Source: Candidatus Freyarchaeum deiterrae (lineage in GTDB: Archaea > Asgardarchaeota > Jordiarchaeia > Jordiarchaeales > Jordiarchaeaceae). Taken from it: a DNA stretch of 64,000 bases. Under the pieces are notes generated by a model. The model worked only from the letters and a program-made list of their open reading frames with translations, did no database searches and was not told the origin of the DNA. Below are positions 8,068-62,203 of this stretch, piece after piece. Position 1 is the stretch's first letter; each line of letters opens with the position of its first letter. The stretch lies in contig CP147778.1 in the NCBI GenBank assembly GCA_037305845.1, positions 1,536,001 to 1,600,000 on the forward strand. The letters are read 5' to 3'. Position numbers and translations under genes: made by a program.

Positions 8068-8210
8068 GGGTACGTCACCTAGCCAGGATTTCAGAAACCT
8101 GAAAGGGTGCCGACGTTTAAGGCATAAGCCCTCTAATCCTGGAGGTAAGCCGGAAAGCCAATAACTATTTGGTCCGGATTTCGAGAGTTCAAACCTCTCC
8201 GTACCCGCCA
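8068..8210 (+). tRNA. tRNA-Arg(UCU) with four BHB introns (20a/21: 8090-8103; 29/30: 8113-8127; 37/38: 8136-8147; 45/46: 8156-8179)
   Basis: Removing the four introns gives a 78-nt cloverleaf: GGGTACG TC ACCT AGCCAGGATA GGGT G CCGGC CCTCTAA GCCGG AATTC GAGAG TTCAAAC CTCTC CGTACCC G CCA; A20 Arg identity element; central helices CAGG/CCTG, GTGC/GCAT, CCTC/GAGG, CCGG/CCGG, each with 3-nt bulges. Confidence 0.9.
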
Positions 8211-9247: not shown

Positions 9248-9409
9248 TGGAGCCCCGGACGGGGGTTTCAGAGTCACACTAAAAGTGCAAGCTCTATCGA
9301 ACCCGCGACCTACAACTCACTCGGACCACATTTGGAATCTGTGGTTGTACGAGGCTGCCGCTCTACCACTGAGCTTTCTCGCCTCTTACTTCACTGGAGG
9401 AACCGAGGC
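9248..9409 (-). tRNA. tRNA-Thr(CGU) with three BHB introns (8/9: 9376-9401; 37/38: 9318-9347; 59/60: 9265-9295)
   Basis: Spliced 75-nt cloverleaf: GCCTCGG TA GCTC AGTGGTA GAGC G GCAGC CTCGTAA GTTGT AGGTC GCGGG TTCGATC CCCGT CCGGGGC T CCA; helices CTCG/CGAG, CTCG/CGAG, TTCG/TGAA. Confidence 0.92.
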
Positions 9410-9580: not shown

Positions 9581-9739
9581 TGGTGCTCCGGACGGGAGTT
9601 TCAAATTAAGTAATCACTTAGTTATTCAATAAAGTAATCACTTAATATTTTGAACCCGTGTCTAGGGATCGATTGGGCTGATGTACATGAGCCCCTTATG
9701 CTTGGCCCTTATCTTGTTTGGCCGCTACACTACCGGAGC
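9581..9739 (-). tRNA. tRNA-Glu(CUC) with three BHB introns (21/22: 9702-9717; 34/35: 9673-9688; 59/60: 9598-9648)
   Basis: Spliced 76-nt cloverleaf: GCTCCGG TA GTGT AGCGGCCAA GCAT A AGGGG CTCTCGA TCCCT AGAC ACGGG TTCAAAT CCCGT CCGGAGC A CCA; helices GGCC/GGCC, GGGC/GCCC, TTCA/TGAA. Confidence 0.9.
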
Positions 9740-12046: not shown

Positions 12047-12153
12047 TGGTGCGGCTGCCGGGATTTTCAGAAAAGTGATTTTTCACTTTTTATTTGAACC
12101 CGGGTAACAAGCTTGGAGGGCTTGTGTCCTAGACCAGTCTGGACTACAGCCGC
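12047..12153 (-). tRNA. tRNA-Gly(UCC) with one BHB intron at 59/60 (12064-12092)
   Basis: GCGGCTG/CAGCCGC A CCA; CAAGC CCTCCAA GCTTG anticodon arm; TTCA/TGAA helix with hairpin intron; 78 nt spliced. Confidence 0.92.
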
Positions 12154-52259: not shown

Positions 52260-53469
52260 TTACTTTCTTCCAATCCATCCTATCTCTTTTATAGTTTCGC
52301 CGGTTTCAATAACTTCAAAAGCCTTTTTCAATACATCTTTCTGTTCTTGTACGGTGACATCTCTGCCACCTAGACCTGCTATAAATTCCAGCACAGGCGG
52401 CCTCTTATCCTCTGTATATAGCGCAGCTTTAATCTCAGATGCTGATGCACCGCCTTTTCCTGCTGAAAGGTTTCTGTCTATTACTGAAATAGCTTTAACG
52501 CGACTAGCAATTCTGCGTATCTCCTCTTCAGGAAAAGGTCTAAAAGTCCTCAGCTTCACTGATCCTGCTCTGTAGCCTTCCTCTCTTAACTCGTCGACAG
52601 CTACCATAGCTTGGTCAGCAAGAGAACCCATACAGAAAATCACCGCGTCTGCATCTTGACACCGATATTCTTCGACCAAATCACCGTGATATCTTCCAAA
52701 TTTCTTTTTGAAATCAGAGGCAACCTCCACGATTTTTCTTTTAGCGTTTTCATGTGCTAAATGTATAAGATACTTGAACTCGTAAAACCAATCATCAGGG
52801 TTCTGTAGATTTCCATAAGTAATGGGGTTATCTATGTCTATACCTATATGCGTTGGATTATATGGAGGAATGAAAGCGTCAACCTCTTCTTGTTCTGGAA
52901 TCACGACTGGTTGAGAGGTATGACTAATAGTGAATCCCTCATAACAAACCATCATTGGTAGAAGAATCTCTTGATCTTCTGCAATTTTAAATGCTTGTAT
53001 AATTGAATCGAACGCGTCCTGATGATTGGCACAATAAACTTGCATCCAGCCAGTATCTCTTTGAGAAACCGAATCGTTGTGATCCGACCAGATGTTCCAA
53101 GGTGGTCCTAAAGCTCTATTAACTACAGCCATAACAATAGGCAAACGCGAAGACGCAGCCCAGTGAACCATCTCATGCATATAGATTAAACCGTGGGCAG
53201 AAGTAGCGGTAAACGTTCTAACCCCAGCGAGAGAAGCGCCGACGCAAGCTGCTAAAGCAGAATGCTCAGATTCGACACGCACAAATTTGGCATTCAATTC
53301 GCCACCATCAACAAGGTCCGACAACTTCTCTACAATACCAGTCTGCGGCGTTATTATCCCCGAACAAGAATCTTGCTCAGTTTGGATAAGCCGCTATAAC
53401 TGCGGGTCTCGATAAAGCAGCAGCGTAAGCCGCAGCATAATTTCCGGTTGTTATCACAGTTTTTGCCAT
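52260..53469 (-). CDS. porA: 2-oxoacid:ferredoxin oxidoreductase alpha subunit, split by a BHB intron: join(53382-53469, 52260-53353), 393 aa
   Basis: Exon 1 MAKTVITTGNYAAAYAAALSRPAVIAAYP; exon 2 continues ITPQTGIVEKL...ESEHSA, TATSAHG, GLGGRD; ATG overlaps the upstream gene's TAA (TAATG). Confidence 0.9.
53354..53381 (-). other. 28-nt BHB intron in porA mRNA
   Basis: Sense strand: gcggctt ATCC AA|A ctgagcaaga t tcttgttcgg GGAT AA|T aacgccgc, a full helix-bulge-helix-bulge-helix; cutting after the 2nd nt of each bulge restores TAT CCA ATA ACG CCG. Confidence 0.85.
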
Positions 53470-54398
53470 TACGCTTCCTCCTTTTCTCTAACTGAGTGCA
53501 TGTTCTTTTTTGGACAAACAGATGCACAAACGCCACAACCTTTACAATAGGTATAATTAATTACAGGATATCCTTCCTCGTCAACACTAATCGCGTTTTC
53601 TGGGCAGAACATCCAACAAGCCAAACAACCATTACATTCTTCTCGATCATAAACTGGTTTAAAAACTCTCCACTCACCAGTTATTCCCATACTTGCCTCT
53701 GAAGGTTTGGAAACTGGTATCGGCGGCAGATCACCCCAAGTCTGAAATTGTGAAACTCTCACCCGCCTGGAAACAGGCATACTGCCCTCAATGTACTGCT
53801 CCTCCGGCACAACATGTTCCACTGTCTTTTCATAAGCTTTTTCAACTGCCTTAAGATTCTTTTCGCCTTCACCACCACTAAATATGCCACTTAAGGCCTC
53901 CAACATAGAATCCAAACTGATTAACCCCGTAGCCTTCGCAAAAGCACCGAGCATGGGTGTGGCAGAAAGTGCCAGCCCCGCCACTTCCAAACCAAATTCT
54001 ATAGAAGTAGAAGTAGCGTCCACAGTAAAAATTTTGGCACCCTTAGGAAGTTTTCCAATCTTGCTAACGGTGTCAGAGTTACCTGGAGTATTAATCACAA
54101 GGATTCCGTCAGTTTTTAAACCATCAGTAATGTTAACCATACCAGATTCAAACAATGTGGGATCAACAACAATCACAATATCAGGAGTATATACATTAGA
54201 ATGGATTCGAATCGGCTCTTTTGAAAACCTTGTATAGGCTGCCACAGGAGCACCACGGCGTTCAGCGCCGAAAAAGGGTATTGTTTGGACTCCTTGGAAG
54301 CCTTCATGGAACGCTGCCTCAGCCAATGTTCTGGCAGCTGTTACTGTGCCCTGGCCACCGCGTCCATGCCATCGTGTCTCGTAAACTTTAGCAGGCAT
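53469..54398 (-). CDS. 2-oxoacid:ferredoxin oxidoreductase gamma-delta fusion
   Basis: HGRGGQG, FGAERRGAPV, then TGEWR and two CxxCxxxCP motifs. Confidence 0.92.
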   Translation of the reverse strand: MPAKVYETRWHGRGGQGTVTAARTLAEAAFHEGFQGVQTIPFFGAERRGAPVAAYTRFSKEPIRIHSNVYTPDIVIVVDPTLFESGMVNITDGLKTDGILVINTPGNSDTVSKIGKLPKGAKIFTVDATSTSIEFGLEVAGLALSATPMLGAFAKATGLISLDSMLEALSGIFSGGEGEKNLKAVEKAYEKTVEHVVPEEQYIEGSMPVSRRVRVSQFQTWGDLPPIPVSKPSEASMGITGEWRVFKPVYDREECNGCLACWMFCPENAISVDEEGYPVINYTYCKGCGVCASVCPKKNMHSVREKEEA

Positions 54399-54648: not shown

Positions 54649-55560
54649 ATGGCATATAAAGCACTACATGCTGAAGCTTCTGAGGAGCTTTGGCTACCAG
54701 GAAGTTCCGCATGTCAAGGATGCGGGTCAACACTGGCTTTGAGATGGGTTCTAAAAGCTTTAGGAAAAAAAACCGTCGTGGTAGCACCCGCCTCCTGCGC
54801 GAACGTTTATGTCGGATGGTGGCCCCGTTCATCTGCGGGCGTGACATATTTCGACATGGCATTCGCCGCCGGCGGAGCCGCGGCTTCAGGAATTGCAGCA
54901 GCCCTAGACTATCTGAACAGGAAAGATATTACTGTATTAACATGGGCAGGCGACGGAGGATCGGTAGATATCGGGATTCAGGCGTTGAGCGGTGCCGCTG
55001 AGAGAGGTACTAATTTCATTTACATATGTTACGACAACGAAGCTTACATGAATACGGGAACTCAGAGAAGTGGCTCTACTCCACTAGGTGCTTGGACCAC
55101 TACGACGCCCTTCGGTAAAAAACAAAAAAAGAAGGACTTAGCCATGATCATGGCTGCTCACAATATTCCTTATGTTGCCACTGCAACGCCTAGCTATCCA
55201 AAGGACCTTTATGAAAAAGTGAAAAAGGCGAAGGATATAGAAGGCACTAAGTACATTCACATTCTGGCGCCTTGTCCTCCTGGCTGGCGGTTTGATACCG
55301 AGTTAATAGTGGATATTGGCAAATCAGCTGTAGAGACAGGTATGTGGGTTCTTTATGAGATTGAGAACGGCAAATTCAAATTGAGCTCTCCTAGTGAGCG
55401 ATTGTTAGATCCATCAAAAAGGAAACCAATTGAGGAATACATTAGACTTCAGGGTAGGTTCAAGGACATTAAGGACGAGGAAATCCAAGAACTCCAGCGT
55501 GGAGTTAATGAACAGTGGGAAAAGTATAAGAAAATGGAAGAAGGCTGCGGCACATTTTAA
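54649..55560 (+). CDS. porB: 2-oxoacid:ferredoxin oxidoreductase beta subunit
   Basis: ACQGCG, GDGG, YDNEAYMNTG, PCPPGW. Confidence 0.93.
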   Translation: MAYKALHAEASEELWLPGSSACQGCGSTLALRWVLKALGKKTVVVAPASCANVYVGWWPRSSAGVTYFDMAFAAGGAAASGIAAALDYLNRKDITVLTWAGDGGSVDIGIQALSGAAERGTNFIYICYDNEAYMNTGTQRSGSTPLGAWTTTTPFGKKQKKKDLAMIMAAHNIPYVATATPSYPKDLYEKVKKAKDIEGTKYIHILAPCPPGWRFDTELIVDIGKSAVETGMWVLYEIENGKFKLSSPSERLLDPSKRKPIEEYIRLQGRFKDIKDEEIQELQRGVNEQWEKYKKMEEGCGTF

Positions 55561-55779
55561 AACAAGTAGTTATTTTTTAGAGCAGCCTCTAACTTTGCCA
55601 CCTTTTTTGAGGTATATTTATTAGTAACATATATTCCAAATTTTATTATCCCAAAATTAACGGAATAGGCGAATCTATCTGCCGAATCAAAATATTAACT
55701 TATCGTACTCTTTATAGGATGTTTTACTCCAAATAATTTGGAGGCTCCTATAGCAGTAGGGTACTTTCAGAGGTGTACT

Positions 55780-56055
55780 GTGTTGTCTGAGGAAAATACA
55801 ATTTTCATTGGAAGTAAAGGTGTTATGGCTTATGTTTTAGCCTGCGTTACGCAGTTAAACAAGGGCAATAAGGACATTGTGTTAAAAGCAAGAGGTAGAG
55901 CTATTAGTCGAGCTGTTGATGTTGCAGAAATTTTGCGAACCAGATTCGTAAGCGATCTCAAGGTAAAGGAAATTAAAATAAGCACAGAGCAAATCAAAGA
56001 GTCCGAGGGAGGCACCGCGAACGTTTCTGCTATAGAGATCAGTCTGGGCAAGTAA
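55780..56055 (+). CDS. albA: DNA/RNA-binding protein Alba
   Basis: [33 protein letters not shown]; GAGGTG RBS. Confidence 0.96.
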
Positions 56056-56266: not shown

Positions 56267-57190
56267 TTAAGTTAAATTCTGTAATTTAATTAATTCTTCC
56301 CATTTTTTATCAACGTAGTCCTGCATCTCTTGTATTAATGATTCTTGACGTTTTGGCTTGAATAAGTGACTGAACTTACCCTGGTATTTTAGGTACTCTT
56401 CAACCGGCTTTTTCTTAACAATATCCTTCGTTATTTTGTACTTTCCGTTTTCAACCTCGTAAAGTGGCCAGTAACGGGTAAGTACAGCTTCTCTAGCTAT
56501 CTCTATTGTTAATTCTGATTCAGTTCTCCATCCTCTAGGACAGGGAGCCAAAATTATTATGAATGAGGGGCCTTCAACCGCAACCGCTTTACGAACTTTT
56601 TTTATCAAGTCTAAGGGGTAGGCCGGGTTCGCAGTAGCGGCGTAGGGGATGTCATGCGCAACCACAATTTTCATAATATCCTTCTGAAATCGAACTTTAC
56701 CTGGGGTTACTTTACCCGTAGGGCTGGTCGTTGTCCACCCAAACTTTGGTGTAGCACCGCTCTGTTGAATACCGGTGTTCATGTACGCTTCATTAGTATA
56801 ACAAATGTACGTAAAATTATGACCCCGCTCCAACGCACCAGACAAAGCCTGCAAACCGATATCATATGTGCCGCCGTCTCCAGCTATAGCGATTACACGA
56901 TTATTCGTCTTCGGAATTCTGCCTTTATGTTGTAGAACTTTAAGTCCCACTTCCACGCCGGATGCCGCCGCGGCGGTGCACTCGAAAGCGGTATGTATCC
57001 AAGGGACGCTCCATGCCGTGTAGGGGTAGGGCGTAGTTGCTACTTCAACGCAGCTTGTAGCGTTAACTATTATGGGGGGTTTTTCAAGAGCCGTGAATAC
57101 TTGTCTTAGTGTTATTGCAGCTCCACAACCCGAACACAATCTATGTCCTGGTGTAAAATATTCTTGTGTAGGTAAACTTTTTAGGGACAT
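56267..57190 (-). CDS. porB: Pyruvate/2-ketoisovalerate oxidoreductase beta subunit
   Basis: GHRLCSGCG, GDGG, NEAYMNTG, PCPRGW. Confidence 0.93.
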   Translation of the reverse strand: MSLKSLPTQEYFTPGHRLCSGCGAAITLRQVFTALEKPPIIVNATSCVEVATTPYPYTAWSVPWIHTAFECTAAAASGVEVGLKVLQHKGRIPKTNNRVIAIAGDGGTYDIGLQALSGALERGHNFTYICYTNEAYMNTGIQQSGATPKFGWTTTSPTGKVTPGKVRFQKDIMKIVVAHDIPYAATANPAYPLDLIKKVRKAVAVEGPSFIIILAPCPRGWRTESELTIEIAREAVLTRYWPLYEVENGKYKITKDIVKKKPVEEYLKYQGKFSHLFKPKRQESLIQEMQDYVDKKWEELIKLQNLT

Positions 57191-57195
57191 AGTTT

Positions 57196-58407
57196 TTACG
57201 CTCCATCATAAGTTACGTTTATACATCCTGGGCCTCTGCAGCCCACGATTTTGTAGTTCTCTTCAATCTTGTCTTTTTTGGCAACTTCGAGAAGTATTTC
57301 GGAAACTTTTTCGAAATGTTCGGTTCTTGTGTCTCTCCCGCCAAGGCCTGTGGGGAACCCCATAATATGGGGGCGGTCTTTGAGCTCATATAATGCGGAT
57401 CTTGCTTCCATACTCAGTGCGCCACCCATTGATCCGAAACTAATGTTTCGATCTATTACTCCAACAGCCTTTATGTTTTTGAGTGATTTTTGTAAGTCCT
57501 CGACTGGGAAGGGGCGGAATACTCGAAGTTTAAGGAGGCCTATCTTTTTCCCCTCTTTTCGCAGCTTATTAACTGCTTCTTGGGCGGTTCCTGCTAGTGA
57601 TCCTATGGTTAATAATGCGACTTCTGCGTCCTCCATTTTGTATTGAGAAATGACCTCGTAATTTGTGTCGAATCTGTTGTTGAAGTCGCTGAATACTTTT
57701 TTGATGACTTTTAGAGAGTTTTGTGTGGCTACTTCTTGTTGGACTTTGATTTCGGGGTAGTATTCGGGCCCGCCGACGCATCCAACTGTTACTGGGTTAT
57801 CTACATCTACTGAGGTATCTGCTTCTCGGAGGGGTAGAAAGTCGTCGATATCTTCTTGATCCAGAAGTTCTAAACCCTCTGTGGCGTGGCTTACGATGAA
57901 GCCGTCGTGGCAGGACATTACCGGTAGCAGGGTGCCTTTGTCTTCCGCTATTCTGTATGCCTGTATGATGGCGTGGTATGATTCTTGGGCGTTCTGGTTA
58001 TAGATTTGTATCCAGCCTGAGTCTCTCACTCCCATGGAGTCGCTCATGTCGTTCCAGATGCTCAGAGGGCTGTTCAATGCTCTGTTGGATACTCCCATAA
58101 CTATTGGTAGTCTAAAAGAAGAGGCGATAAACATCATCTCAAACATCAGAGCAATTCCTTGAGAGGCGGAGGCGGTGAATACTCTTGCTCCAGTCAGAGA
58201 GGCGCCTATACATGCTGCCATTGCTGAATGTTCGGATTCCGCGGATATAAGCTCGGCGTCGATTTCACCATTTGCATAATACTGAGCTAATTCTTCAACG
58301 ATCTGGGTTTGGGGAGTTATGGGGTACATGGCGATTACGTCCGGTCTGCATTGTTTTACCGAATGGGCTACAGCTTCATTTCCAGTTAATGCGGTTAGTT
58401 TTGCCAT
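57196..58407 (-). CDS. porA: Pyruvate/2-ketoisovalerate oxidoreductase alpha subunit (uninterrupted)
   Basis: TGNEAVA, YPITPQT, ESEHSA, GLGGRD. Confidence 0.95.
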   Translation of the reverse strand: MAKLTALTGNEAVAHSVKQCRPDVIAMYPITPQTQIVEELAQYYANGEIDAELISAESEHSAMAACIGASLTGARVFTASASQGIALMFEMMFIASSFRLPIVMGVSNRALNSPLSIWNDMSDSMGVRDSGWIQIYNQNAQESYHAIIQAYRIAEDKGTLLPVMSCHDGFIVSHATEGLELLDQEDIDDFLPLREADTSVDVDNPVTVGCVGGPEYYPEIKVQQEVATQNSLKVIKKVFSDFNNRFDTNYEVISQYKMEDAEVALLTIGSLAGTAQEAVNKLRKEGKKIGLLKLRVFRPFPVEDLQKSLKNIKAVGVIDRNISFGSMGGALSMEARSALYELKDRPHIMGFPTGLGGRDTRTEHFEKVSEILLEVAKKDKIEENYKIVGCRGPGCINVTYDGA

Positions 58408-58410
58408 TTT

Positions 58411-58701
58411 TTATTCTTCCTCCATTTCTATCGCTTTCACAGGGCATTCTTGGCAACATATTCCACAACCTTTGCAGTAAAAATAATTAATTTTGACCTT
58501 GTTTTCCTCTCTTTCTATGGCTCCTTCAGGGCAGTAAATCCAGCATAGTAGACAGTTGTTGCATTTGTTTTCTTTTAGTACAGGTTTTTTTCCTTCTCTC
58601 CAGTCGCCGGTTTTGTATTCTCTGGCATTACCTGACTCTGTGATGTACCCACCTTTGGGAATCTCGTTCCAAGATTTTAGTTTCTTTTCAGATTCGCTCA
58701 A
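58411..58701 (-). CDS. porD: Oxidoreductase delta subunit (ferredoxin-like)
   Basis: TGDWR, two CxxCxxxCP motifs. Confidence 0.93.
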   Translation of the reverse strand: MSESEKKLKSWNEIPKGGYITESGNAREYKTGDWREGKKPVLKENKCNNCLLCWIYCPEGAIEREENKVKINYFYCKGCGICCQECPVKAIEMEEE

Positions 58702-59255
58702 CCCATCTTTACCTCCTCATACGCCCTTTTTATCGCATTTATGTTTTTTTCCGCCAAGTCTTGTCTGAATCTTTCTTTGGTCACCTCAATGATGGTGTTC
58801 AAACTTACGATTCCTGTAGCTTTTGCTAAGGCTCCTAGGATGGAAGTATTGGTTATTGAATTGCCTAGGGTTTCCACTGCGATTTTTGTTGCGTTAATTG
58901 TTGCAACCTTGTTATTTACTTTCAACTCGGATTTTATTTGAGGGGGATTTTTATCGGTGTTAACGATTATGATTCCGTCTTTCTTCAGACCCTCTGTGAC
59001 TTTTTCAACTTTTAGTAGTGTGGGATCCAGTACAACAACGATATCAGGGTCGTAGATCTGCGATCTGTTAAGTATCGGCTCATCACTTACTTTGGTGAAT
59101 GCCTTTATTGGTGCCCCTTTTCTCTCTGCTCCAAAGCTCGGAAAACCTTGAGCCATTTTTCCTTCCTTTATAGCAGCTTCTGTAACCAGTCTACTTGCAG
59201 TGACTACTCCTTGTCCTCCTCTACCATGGAATCTAATTTTAATAACATCGCCCAA
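58698..59255 (-). CDS. porG: Oxidoreductase gamma subunit
   Basis: HGRGGQG, FGAERKGAP, ILGALAKATG. Confidence 0.93.
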   Translation of the reverse strand: MGDVIKIRFHGRGGQGVVTASRLVTEAAIKEGKMAQGFPSFGAERKGAPIKAFTKVSDEPILNRSQIYDPDIVVVLDPTLLKVEKVTEGLKKDGIIIVNTDKNPPQIKSELKVNNKVATINATKIAVETLGNSITNTSILGALAKATGIVSLNTIIEVTKERFRQDLAEKNINAIKRAYEEVKMG

Positions 59256-62106: not shown

Positions 62107-62203
62107 TGGCGCAGGGAGAGGGATTCGAACCCCCGCATCCCTTACGGGATACTGGCTCTCAAGGCCTACGCTTGAAGGAGATTCCTCATTCAATCAGCGC
62201 CGT
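62107..62203 (-). tRNA. 3' portion (nt ~21-76) of tRNA-Ser(UGA) with a 29/30 BHB intron (62166-62194); nt 1-20 absent
   Basis: ACGGC G CTGGC CTTGAGA GCCAG, long variable arm ATCCC GTAA GGGAT, GGGGG TTCGAAT CCCTC, TCCCTGC G CCA; no matching GCAGGG(A/G) acceptor strand upstream. Confidence 0.8.

What the first reader, a model, noticed from the sequence alone, without database searches (positions are those of the whole stretch)
53354..53381. tRNA-type BHB intron inside a central-metabolism mRNA (porA)
Seen: the conserved YPITP motif is broken by a 28-nt insert that shifts the frame. The insert folds with its flanks into a complete BHB: inner hairpin CTGAGCAAGA/TCTTGTTCGG, bulge AAA, helix ATCC/GGAT, bulge AAT, exon-exon stem GCGGCTT/AA(C)GCCGC. 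Canonical EndA cuts restore Y-P-I-T-P-Q-T exactly. The ATG is coupled to the upstream stop, and the paralogue at 57196-58407 is intact at the same motif. Known: archaeal mRNA BHB introns are rare, the classic case being crenarchaeal cbf5. Inference: this lineage splices mRNAs with its tRNA machinery, so more such genes may be mis-annotated as frameshifted, and splicing may gate expression of this enzyme.
Basis: partly seen in the sequence, partly recalled or inferred. Interest (0 to 1): 0.93.

Follow-up and report, generated by a model that had tools for sequence, protein, structure and literature searches.

The report
tRNA-type intron in Asgard metabolic gene
A core energy-metabolism gene of an Asgard archaeon (a close relative of eukaryotes) is broken by a 28-base intron of the kind archaea cut out of tRNAs; it has to be removed from the messenger RNA to make the enzyme, about twenty more sites in this genome look the same, and the papers I could search document this for only one other archaeal coding sequence (cbf5).

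Summary
Confirmed, on the minus strand. A 28-nt insert (53381-53354) splits the substrate-binding YPITP motif of a 2-oxoacid:ferredoxin oxidoreductase alpha subunit (POR/VOR family; 'porA' is not certain). The genome is the complete Freyarchaeia/Jordarchaeia genome of PMC11291895. The insert forms a bulge-helix-bulge (BHB). Eight distinct orthologous versions carry it at the same site, 28, 29 or 33 nt long (all three frames), always with an in-frame stop. Only the canonical EndA cut restores YPITP in all eight. Sister-family and other Asgard orthologues lack it. Both exons are under strong purifying selection (dN/dS about 0.045). Assembly error, pseudogene and frameshifting are therefore rejected or unlikely. 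The genome encodes a crenarchaeal-type two-subunit EndA and RtcB. I found about 21 such inserts in 19 protein genes, 11 backed by homology tests. BHB shape alone is common by chance; the case rests on homology-defined boundaries. This scan noted the same phenomenon before, in this genome (rtcB, gatE, cbf5) and in other Asgard genomes.

The parts
53382..53469 (-). exon 1 of the 2-oxoacid:ferredoxin oxidoreductase alpha gene (29 codons + 1 nt); ATG overlaps the upstream TAA
   Evidence: dN/dS about 0.015 against four relatives
53354..53381 (-). 28-nt BHB intron, phase 1, in the Ile codon of YPITP
   Evidence: the only register giving YPITP in all 8 versions
52260..53353 (-). exon 2 (POR_N, PFOR_II domains)
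   Evidence: starts at position 30 of the PorA_Arch model
53388..53394 (-). outer exon-exon helix, 5' arm (pairs with 53345-53352, one bulged C)
   Evidence: 55/56 cells paired; partly fixed by my search pattern in L110 and L114
53384..53387 (-). central 4-bp helix, 5' strand ATCC (exonic)
   Evidence: 32/32 cells paired
53381..53383 (-). 5' 3-nt bulge AA|A; cut after the second base
   Evidence: same register as 57 tRNA introns of this genome
53360..53380 (-). inner intron hairpin, 9 bp with a 3-nt loop (loop 3-8 nt in relatives); contains the in-frame stop at 53377-53379
   Evidence: 71/72 cells paired; G-C, G-U and A-U alternate at two positions
53356..53359 (-). central helix, 3' strand GGAT (intronic)
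53353..53355 (-). 3' 3-nt bulge AA|T; cut after the second base
53345..53352 (-). outer helix, 3' arm (exon 2)
53469..54398 (-). upstream fused gamma-delta subunit gene, translationally coupled to exon 1
54649..55560 (+). divergent beta subunit gene (passes PRK11864, VorB-type)
57196..58407 (-). intron-less paralogous alpha subunit (44% identical), in a second gamma-delta-alpha-beta cluster

Best explanation
The insert is a protein-spliced BHB intron of the tRNA/cbf5 type. The gamma-delta/alpha pre-mRNA folds locally into outer helix, 4-bp central helix, two 3-nt bulges and an intron hairpin (shown in sequence, conserved). The genome's two-subunit splicing endonuclease cuts after the second base of each bulge (inferred from known EndA chemistry; the same register fits 57 tRNA introns here). 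RtcB rejoins the exons (inferred), restoring YPITP and the 393-aa subunit. Unspliced message yields only a 30-aa peptide. The intron was most parsimoniously gained once in the ancestor of this genus/family, as part of a spread of BHB introns from tRNA genes into about 19 protein genes. It persists because it is removable and sits in an essential motif. It is probably a tolerated passenger rather than a regulator; that last step is inference.
For: Same site in 5 species and 3 further distinct assemblies, with lengths 28, 29 and 33 nt. Only shift 0 gives YPITP in all 8. Central helix 32/32 and inner helix 71/72 cells paired while the loop varies; the one exon-1 change near the cut (L108) falls on an unpaired bulge base. 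Absent from 5 sister-family orthologues and 20 other Asgard homologues. dS 1.0-1.9, dN/dS about 0.045, exon 1 about 0.015. YPITP residues are essential for activity (PMC5020499). The EndA catalytic subunit is closest to Aeropyrum pernix EndA, with Y125/H133/K164 and CSL K44 aligned; a second EndA paralogue and one RtcB are present. Other genes show the same pattern with variable lengths in relatives: kae1 28/29/29/14/14/0, cbf5 32/32/31/29/27/41, alba 30/30/30/27/40/0, pcm 32/32/32/31/25/28, ahcY 29/27/30/0/23/0. Exon pairs are contiguous in family models: TsaD 61/64, PCMT 59/61, CBF5 69/71, GatE 88/90, SelD 90/91.
Against: The exact BHB conformer is 3.1 kcal/mol above the predicted minimum. 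Among five species there was no two-sided change against the commonest pair, and the shuffle control was not exceeded; covariation is through G-U intermediates only. An intact paralogue exists, so the gene is not proven essential.
Confidence: 0.93

Rival explanations
1. Translational recoding: the ribosome frameshifts or hops over the hairpin, with no RNA splicing.
For: A stable hairpin with an immediate stop resembles bypass signals (general knowledge). cbf5 introns were once mistaken for frameshifts (PMC2738675).
Against: Insert lengths of 28, 29 and 33 nt need three different frame changes at one conserved site. There are no matching take-off and landing codons (terminal repeats 0-3 nt). 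The conserved geometry is exactly the EndA substrate.
Confidence: 0.02
2. Regulated splicing: the intron is real and acts as a switch that gates expression of the enzyme. This is compatible with the best explanation.
For: An alternative pairing hides the 3' bulge. All in-frame-length introns checked contain a stop. The intron was retained across saturated dS.
Against: The competing pairing is weaker in relatives whose bulge ends in AT. The intron-bearing genes share no pathway (translation, Fe-S enzymes, amino-acid and cofactor metabolism). Sister-family orthologues do without it.
Confidence: 0.12
3. Inactivated gene or N-truncated protein: the insert is a hairpin/transposon scar, and either nothing or a protein from a downstream start (TTG 53324) is made, with the paralogue doing the work.
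For: An intact paralogue lies 3.7 kb away. Gene callers all start downstream.
Against: Exon 1 is more conserved than exon 2 (dN 0.016-0.024 at dS of 1 or more). There is no decay in 8 versions. A truncated protein would lack the essential YPITP. There is no target-site duplication and no other copy in the genome.
Confidence: 0.03
4. Assembly or sequencing artefact.
For: The genome is metagenome-assembled.
Against: The insert is present, with different sequences, in independent assemblies from GTDB, NCBI and JGI.
Confidence: 0.005

Closest known systems
cbf5 pre-mRNA BHB intron of Desulfurococcales/Sulfolobales (Yokobori et al. 2009, PMC2738675, citing Watanabe 2002 and Yoshinari 2006)
   Same: Short (16-44 nt) BHB-bounded insert in a coding sequence, phase 1, in a catalytically essential motif, patchy across lineages, with a hetero-oligomeric EndA. 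This genome also has an intron at the cbf5 catalytic-Asp codon.
   Different: Central-metabolism enzyme, Asgard host, gained recently at genus/family level, and one of about 21 sites in about 19 genes rather than a single gene. Splicing was shown by experiment for cbf5 but not here.
BHB intron in the 5' UTR of Haloferax volcanii HVO_1309 (Schwarz et al. 2020, PMC7714728)
   Same: mRNA substrate of the tRNA splicing endonuclease.
   Different: It lies in a UTR and does not interrupt a reading frame.
Non-canonical tRNA introns of Freyarchaeia/Atabeyarchaeia (PMC11291895; bioRxiv 10.64898/2026.10.13.758758)
   Same: Same genome, cut register, median length (28 nt) and A-rich bulges.
   Different: Those papers treat tRNA genes only. 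'mRNA' and 'cbf5' do not occur in the preprint and 'frameshift' does not occur in the genome paper. The insert is not a copy of any tRNA intron.

Membership tests
archaeal EndA-spliced BHB intron (cbf5 type) | 4-bp central helix flanked by two 3-nt bulges with outer and inner helices (hBHBh') | tested here: met
   caveat: the exact conformer is 3.1 kcal/mol above the predicted minimum
archaeal EndA-spliced BHB intron (cbf5 type) | cuts after the second base of each bulge restore the uninterrupted product | tested here: met
   the only register giving YPITP in all 8 versions
archaeal EndA-spliced BHB intron (cbf5 type) | orthologues exist with and without the insert at the same codon | tested here: met
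archaeal EndA-spliced BHB intron (cbf5 type) | host encodes EndA with the catalytic triad (broad-specificity type) and an RNA ligase | tested here: met
   two EndA paralogues, Tyr/His/Lys and CSL Lys aligned to A. pernix; one RtcB
archaeal EndA-spliced BHB intron (cbf5 type) | spliced mRNA or circular intron detected; cleavage by EndA in vitro | not testable with these tools
group I / group II self-splicing intron | catalytic RNA core of at least about 150-200 nt | tested here: not met
   the insert is 28-33 nt, a single hairpin; size limit from general knowledge
MITE / insertion-sequence footprint | target-site duplication and further copies in the genome | tested here: not met
   terminal repeat 0-3 nt and inconsistent; nearest other match has 7 mismatches
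archaeal pyruvate synthase PorA (NF040682) | score above the curated cut-off of 550 bits | tested here: inconclusive
   exon 2 alone scores 452, PorA-type best, VorA-type 408; the adjacent beta passes the VorB-type model PRK11864

The most novel reading that the evidence does not exclude
In this Asgard lineage, tRNA-endonuclease splicing is a routine, genome-wide step of mRNA maturation. About 20 BHB introns, which are gained and lost and change length freely, interrupt conserved motifs of translation, cofactor and central-metabolism genes. This amounts to a prokaryotic exon-intron gene architecture independent of group II introns and spliceosomes.
Probability: 0.85. Interest if true: 0.88.

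Novelty: new variant of a known kind. Interest (0 to 1): 0.82.

Why it matters
In the papers I could search, an intron inside an archaeal coding sequence is confirmed only for cbf5. A conserved intron in a central-metabolism enzyme, with about twenty more in the same genome, means protein-spliced mRNA introns can spread and persist in the archaeal group closest to eukaryotes. It bears on how intron-rich genes arise and on the origin of EndA-type mRNA splicing. It gives short, directly testable substrates. It also shows that gene calls in these genomes are systematically wrong: none of the 44 closest database proteins has the active-site N-terminus, and some are named only 'transketolase C-terminal domain-containing protein'.

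Tried and rejected
A pattern scan of metagenome contigs for spliced or unspliced forms found intron-less matches only in distant homologues (42-56% identity), so no cDNA-like copy; one earlier pattern was a syntax slip. A 392-aa database protein (P0002) looked full-length but is a mis-started read-through of the intron. Exact look-up of the truncated ORF found nothing. Using BHB shape alone as a genome-wide detector was rejected, because real and control sequences give similar counts; most rows of scans 23, 24, 38 and 39 are chance. A donor among tRNA introns was rejected (best score within the shuffle range). The covariation test on five species was uninformative. The tyrS site could not be aligned in the three distant genomes. 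ARAGORN at relaxed settings was noise. Literature searches found no report of coding-sequence BHB introns in Asgard archaea; subscription journals are not covered.

Full report
Observation. The gene lies on the minus strand. It starts at 53469, its ATG overlapping the TAA of a fused gamma-delta subunit gene, and after 88 nt is interrupted by 28 nt (53381-53354). Removing them gives a stop-free 393-aa protein containing YPITPQT; leaving them gives a 30-aa peptide. ViennaRNA prefers a slipped form in which the outer UU pairs with the AA of the 3' bulge; the exact BHB is 3.1 kcal/mol higher, while the central helix is formed with p about 0.97. BHB-like folds of comparable strength occur 84-97 times per strand and 65-79 times in reversed, complemented or shuffled controls. 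Shape alone is therefore not evidence. What counts is that the ends defined by protein homology coincide with the cut sites.

Host. The genome is one contig of 3,576,204 bp, the exact length of the complete Freyarchaeia genome of PMC11291895 (Jordarchaeaceae in NCBI names of close proteins). That paper reports introns in 92-95% of tRNA genes. The 57 tRNA introns I took from its Supplementary Data 4 follow the same cut register, have a median length of 28 nt and A-rich bulges. The genome encodes two EndA paralogues. One is closest to Aeropyrum pernix EndA (E 8e-43), with Tyr125, His133, Lys164 and the crenarchaeal-specific-loop Lys44 aligned. That loop confers broad substrate range (PMC3241643). 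One RtcB gene is present.

Comparative test. All four same-genus genomes in which the 5' end is assembled have an insert at the same point, 33 nt long and in frame but with a stop codon. All five sister-family orthologues and 20 other Asgard homologues have an uninterrupted YPITP. Further assemblies add 28-, 28- and 29-nt versions. Across eight distinct versions the central helix is paired in 32/32 cells and the inner helix in 71/72, with G-C, G-U and A-U alternating, while the loop varies from 3 to 8 nt. Only the canonical cut gives YPITP in all eight. Formal covariation on five species is not above shuffles, and exon invariance in two of the metagenome hits is imposed by my search pattern. 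The spliced genes have dS 1.0-1.9 and dN/dS about 0.045, and exon 1 about 0.015, so exon 1 is translated and the gene is not decaying. Lengths covering all three frames exclude a programmed frameshift. There is no target-site duplication and no second copy or tRNA-intron donor. The interrupted motif binds the substrate carboxylate and each residue is needed for activity (PMC5020499).

Which enzyme. Exon 2 scores best to archaeal PorA but below the cut-off, with VorA close behind; the divergent beta gene passes only the VorB-type model. 'POR/VOR-family alpha subunit' is the safe name. An intron-less paralogue (44%) lies in a second cluster at 56267-59255.

Not alone. A scan for BHBs whose removal restores a frame, filtered by homology, gives further introns (G000 C1, first intron base). 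Tested against relatives or family models: cbf5 -1483446, at the same Asp codon as in Crenarchaeota; kae1 -2203742; pcm +2244134; tyrS -1873166; alba +1125569; ahcY -1876927; gatE -1472189; selD +2458220; leuC/hacA -2636190; an HD protein +987065. Partly tested: hypD +2580004, TIGR00375 +2285374, a YchF-like GTPase -2191720. Judged from a restored motif only: ahcY -1877066 and -1876393, mvhD -1145015, hdrC +1152345, a radical SAM gene +1863944, rtcB -1452824 (3 of 4 central pairs) and a probable nadE +1619887. The positions of ahcY -1876393, mvhD, the radical SAM site and the 29-nt rtcB reading came as leads from earlier notes of this scan, which I then checked in the sequence. With the finding itself that makes about 21 sites in 19 genes, 11 with solid homology support. 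In relatives these introns keep their position and register but change length freely or are absent, and cbf5 and pcm introns also occur in a 2.8-Mb complete genome of another Asgard family. All seven in-frame-length orthologous introns checked, and the 33-nt versions here, contain an in-frame stop; only about four of these are independent, so this is suggestive only.

Mechanism. Shown: insert, conserved BHB geometry, register, selection on both exons, presence of the enzymes. Inferred: EndA cleaves both bulges of the pre-mRNA and RtcB ligates the exons (0.93). Not supported either way: regulation by splicing (0.12).

Relation to what is known. It works like, and meets every testable criterion of, the cbf5-type EndA intron. 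PMC7714728 (2020) lists cbf5 as the only earlier mRNA case and adds a 5' UTR intron in Haloferax; PMC2738675 mentions unconfirmed predictions for other genes. The genome paper and a 2026 preprint on Asgard tRNA introns do not deal with coding-sequence introns, and my searches found no such report. I class it as a new variant of a known kind: known chemistry, new target class and scale. Earlier AI notes of this scan describe the same phenomenon in this and other Asgard genomes; they are not independent evidence and did not set the score.

Noticed in passing
G000 C1 1452824 (minus), locus L046: The single rtcB ligase gene is itself interrupted by a 29-nt BHB-like insert just before AHQGYGFPIG; a 20-nt perfect BHB is nested inside it.
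   Followed up: partly
G000 C1 1483446 (minus), L038: cbf5 intron at the same catalytic-Asp codon as in Crenarchaeota; present in all five relatives tested, including another Asgard family (27-41 nt). Shared ancestry or repeated gain was not tested.
   Followed up: partly
G000 C1 1877066, 1876927, 1876393 (minus), L033: ahcY appears to carry three introns (56, 29 and 191 nt).
   Followed up: partly
G000 C1 1619887 (plus): 33-nt BHB insert whose removal restores a NAD-synthetase-like motif (GYFTKYGDGG), identified from memory only.
   Followed up: no
L060, L065, L066, L070-L072, L059: Every in-frame-length intron checked contains an in-frame stop, so unspliced mRNA cannot make a protein with an inserted peptide; few independent cases.
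   Followed up: partly
window 53469-54398 (minus) and 54649-55560 (plus): The gamma and delta subunits are fused and the beta gene is divergently transcribed; the same layout is seen in L108.
   Followed up: no
window 55738-56055 (plus): Intact alba paralogue between the two oxidoreductase clusters, whereas the alba at C1 1125569 has an intron.
   Followed up: no
window 8068-8210, 9248-9409, 9581-9739, 12047-12153: tRNA-Arg, -Thr, -Met and -Gly genes with 1-4 non-canonical BHB introns (listed in PMC11291895; register checked).
   Followed up: partly
window 62107-62200 (minus): ARAGORN calls a 94-nt tRNA-Leu(TAG) here that is not in the paper's tRNA table; it may be a mis-parsed intron-containing tRNA.
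   Followed up: no
G000 whole genome: About 180 chance-level strong BHB-like folds exist on the two strands, which raises the question how a broad-specificity EndA avoids cutting ordinary mRNAs.
   Followed up: no
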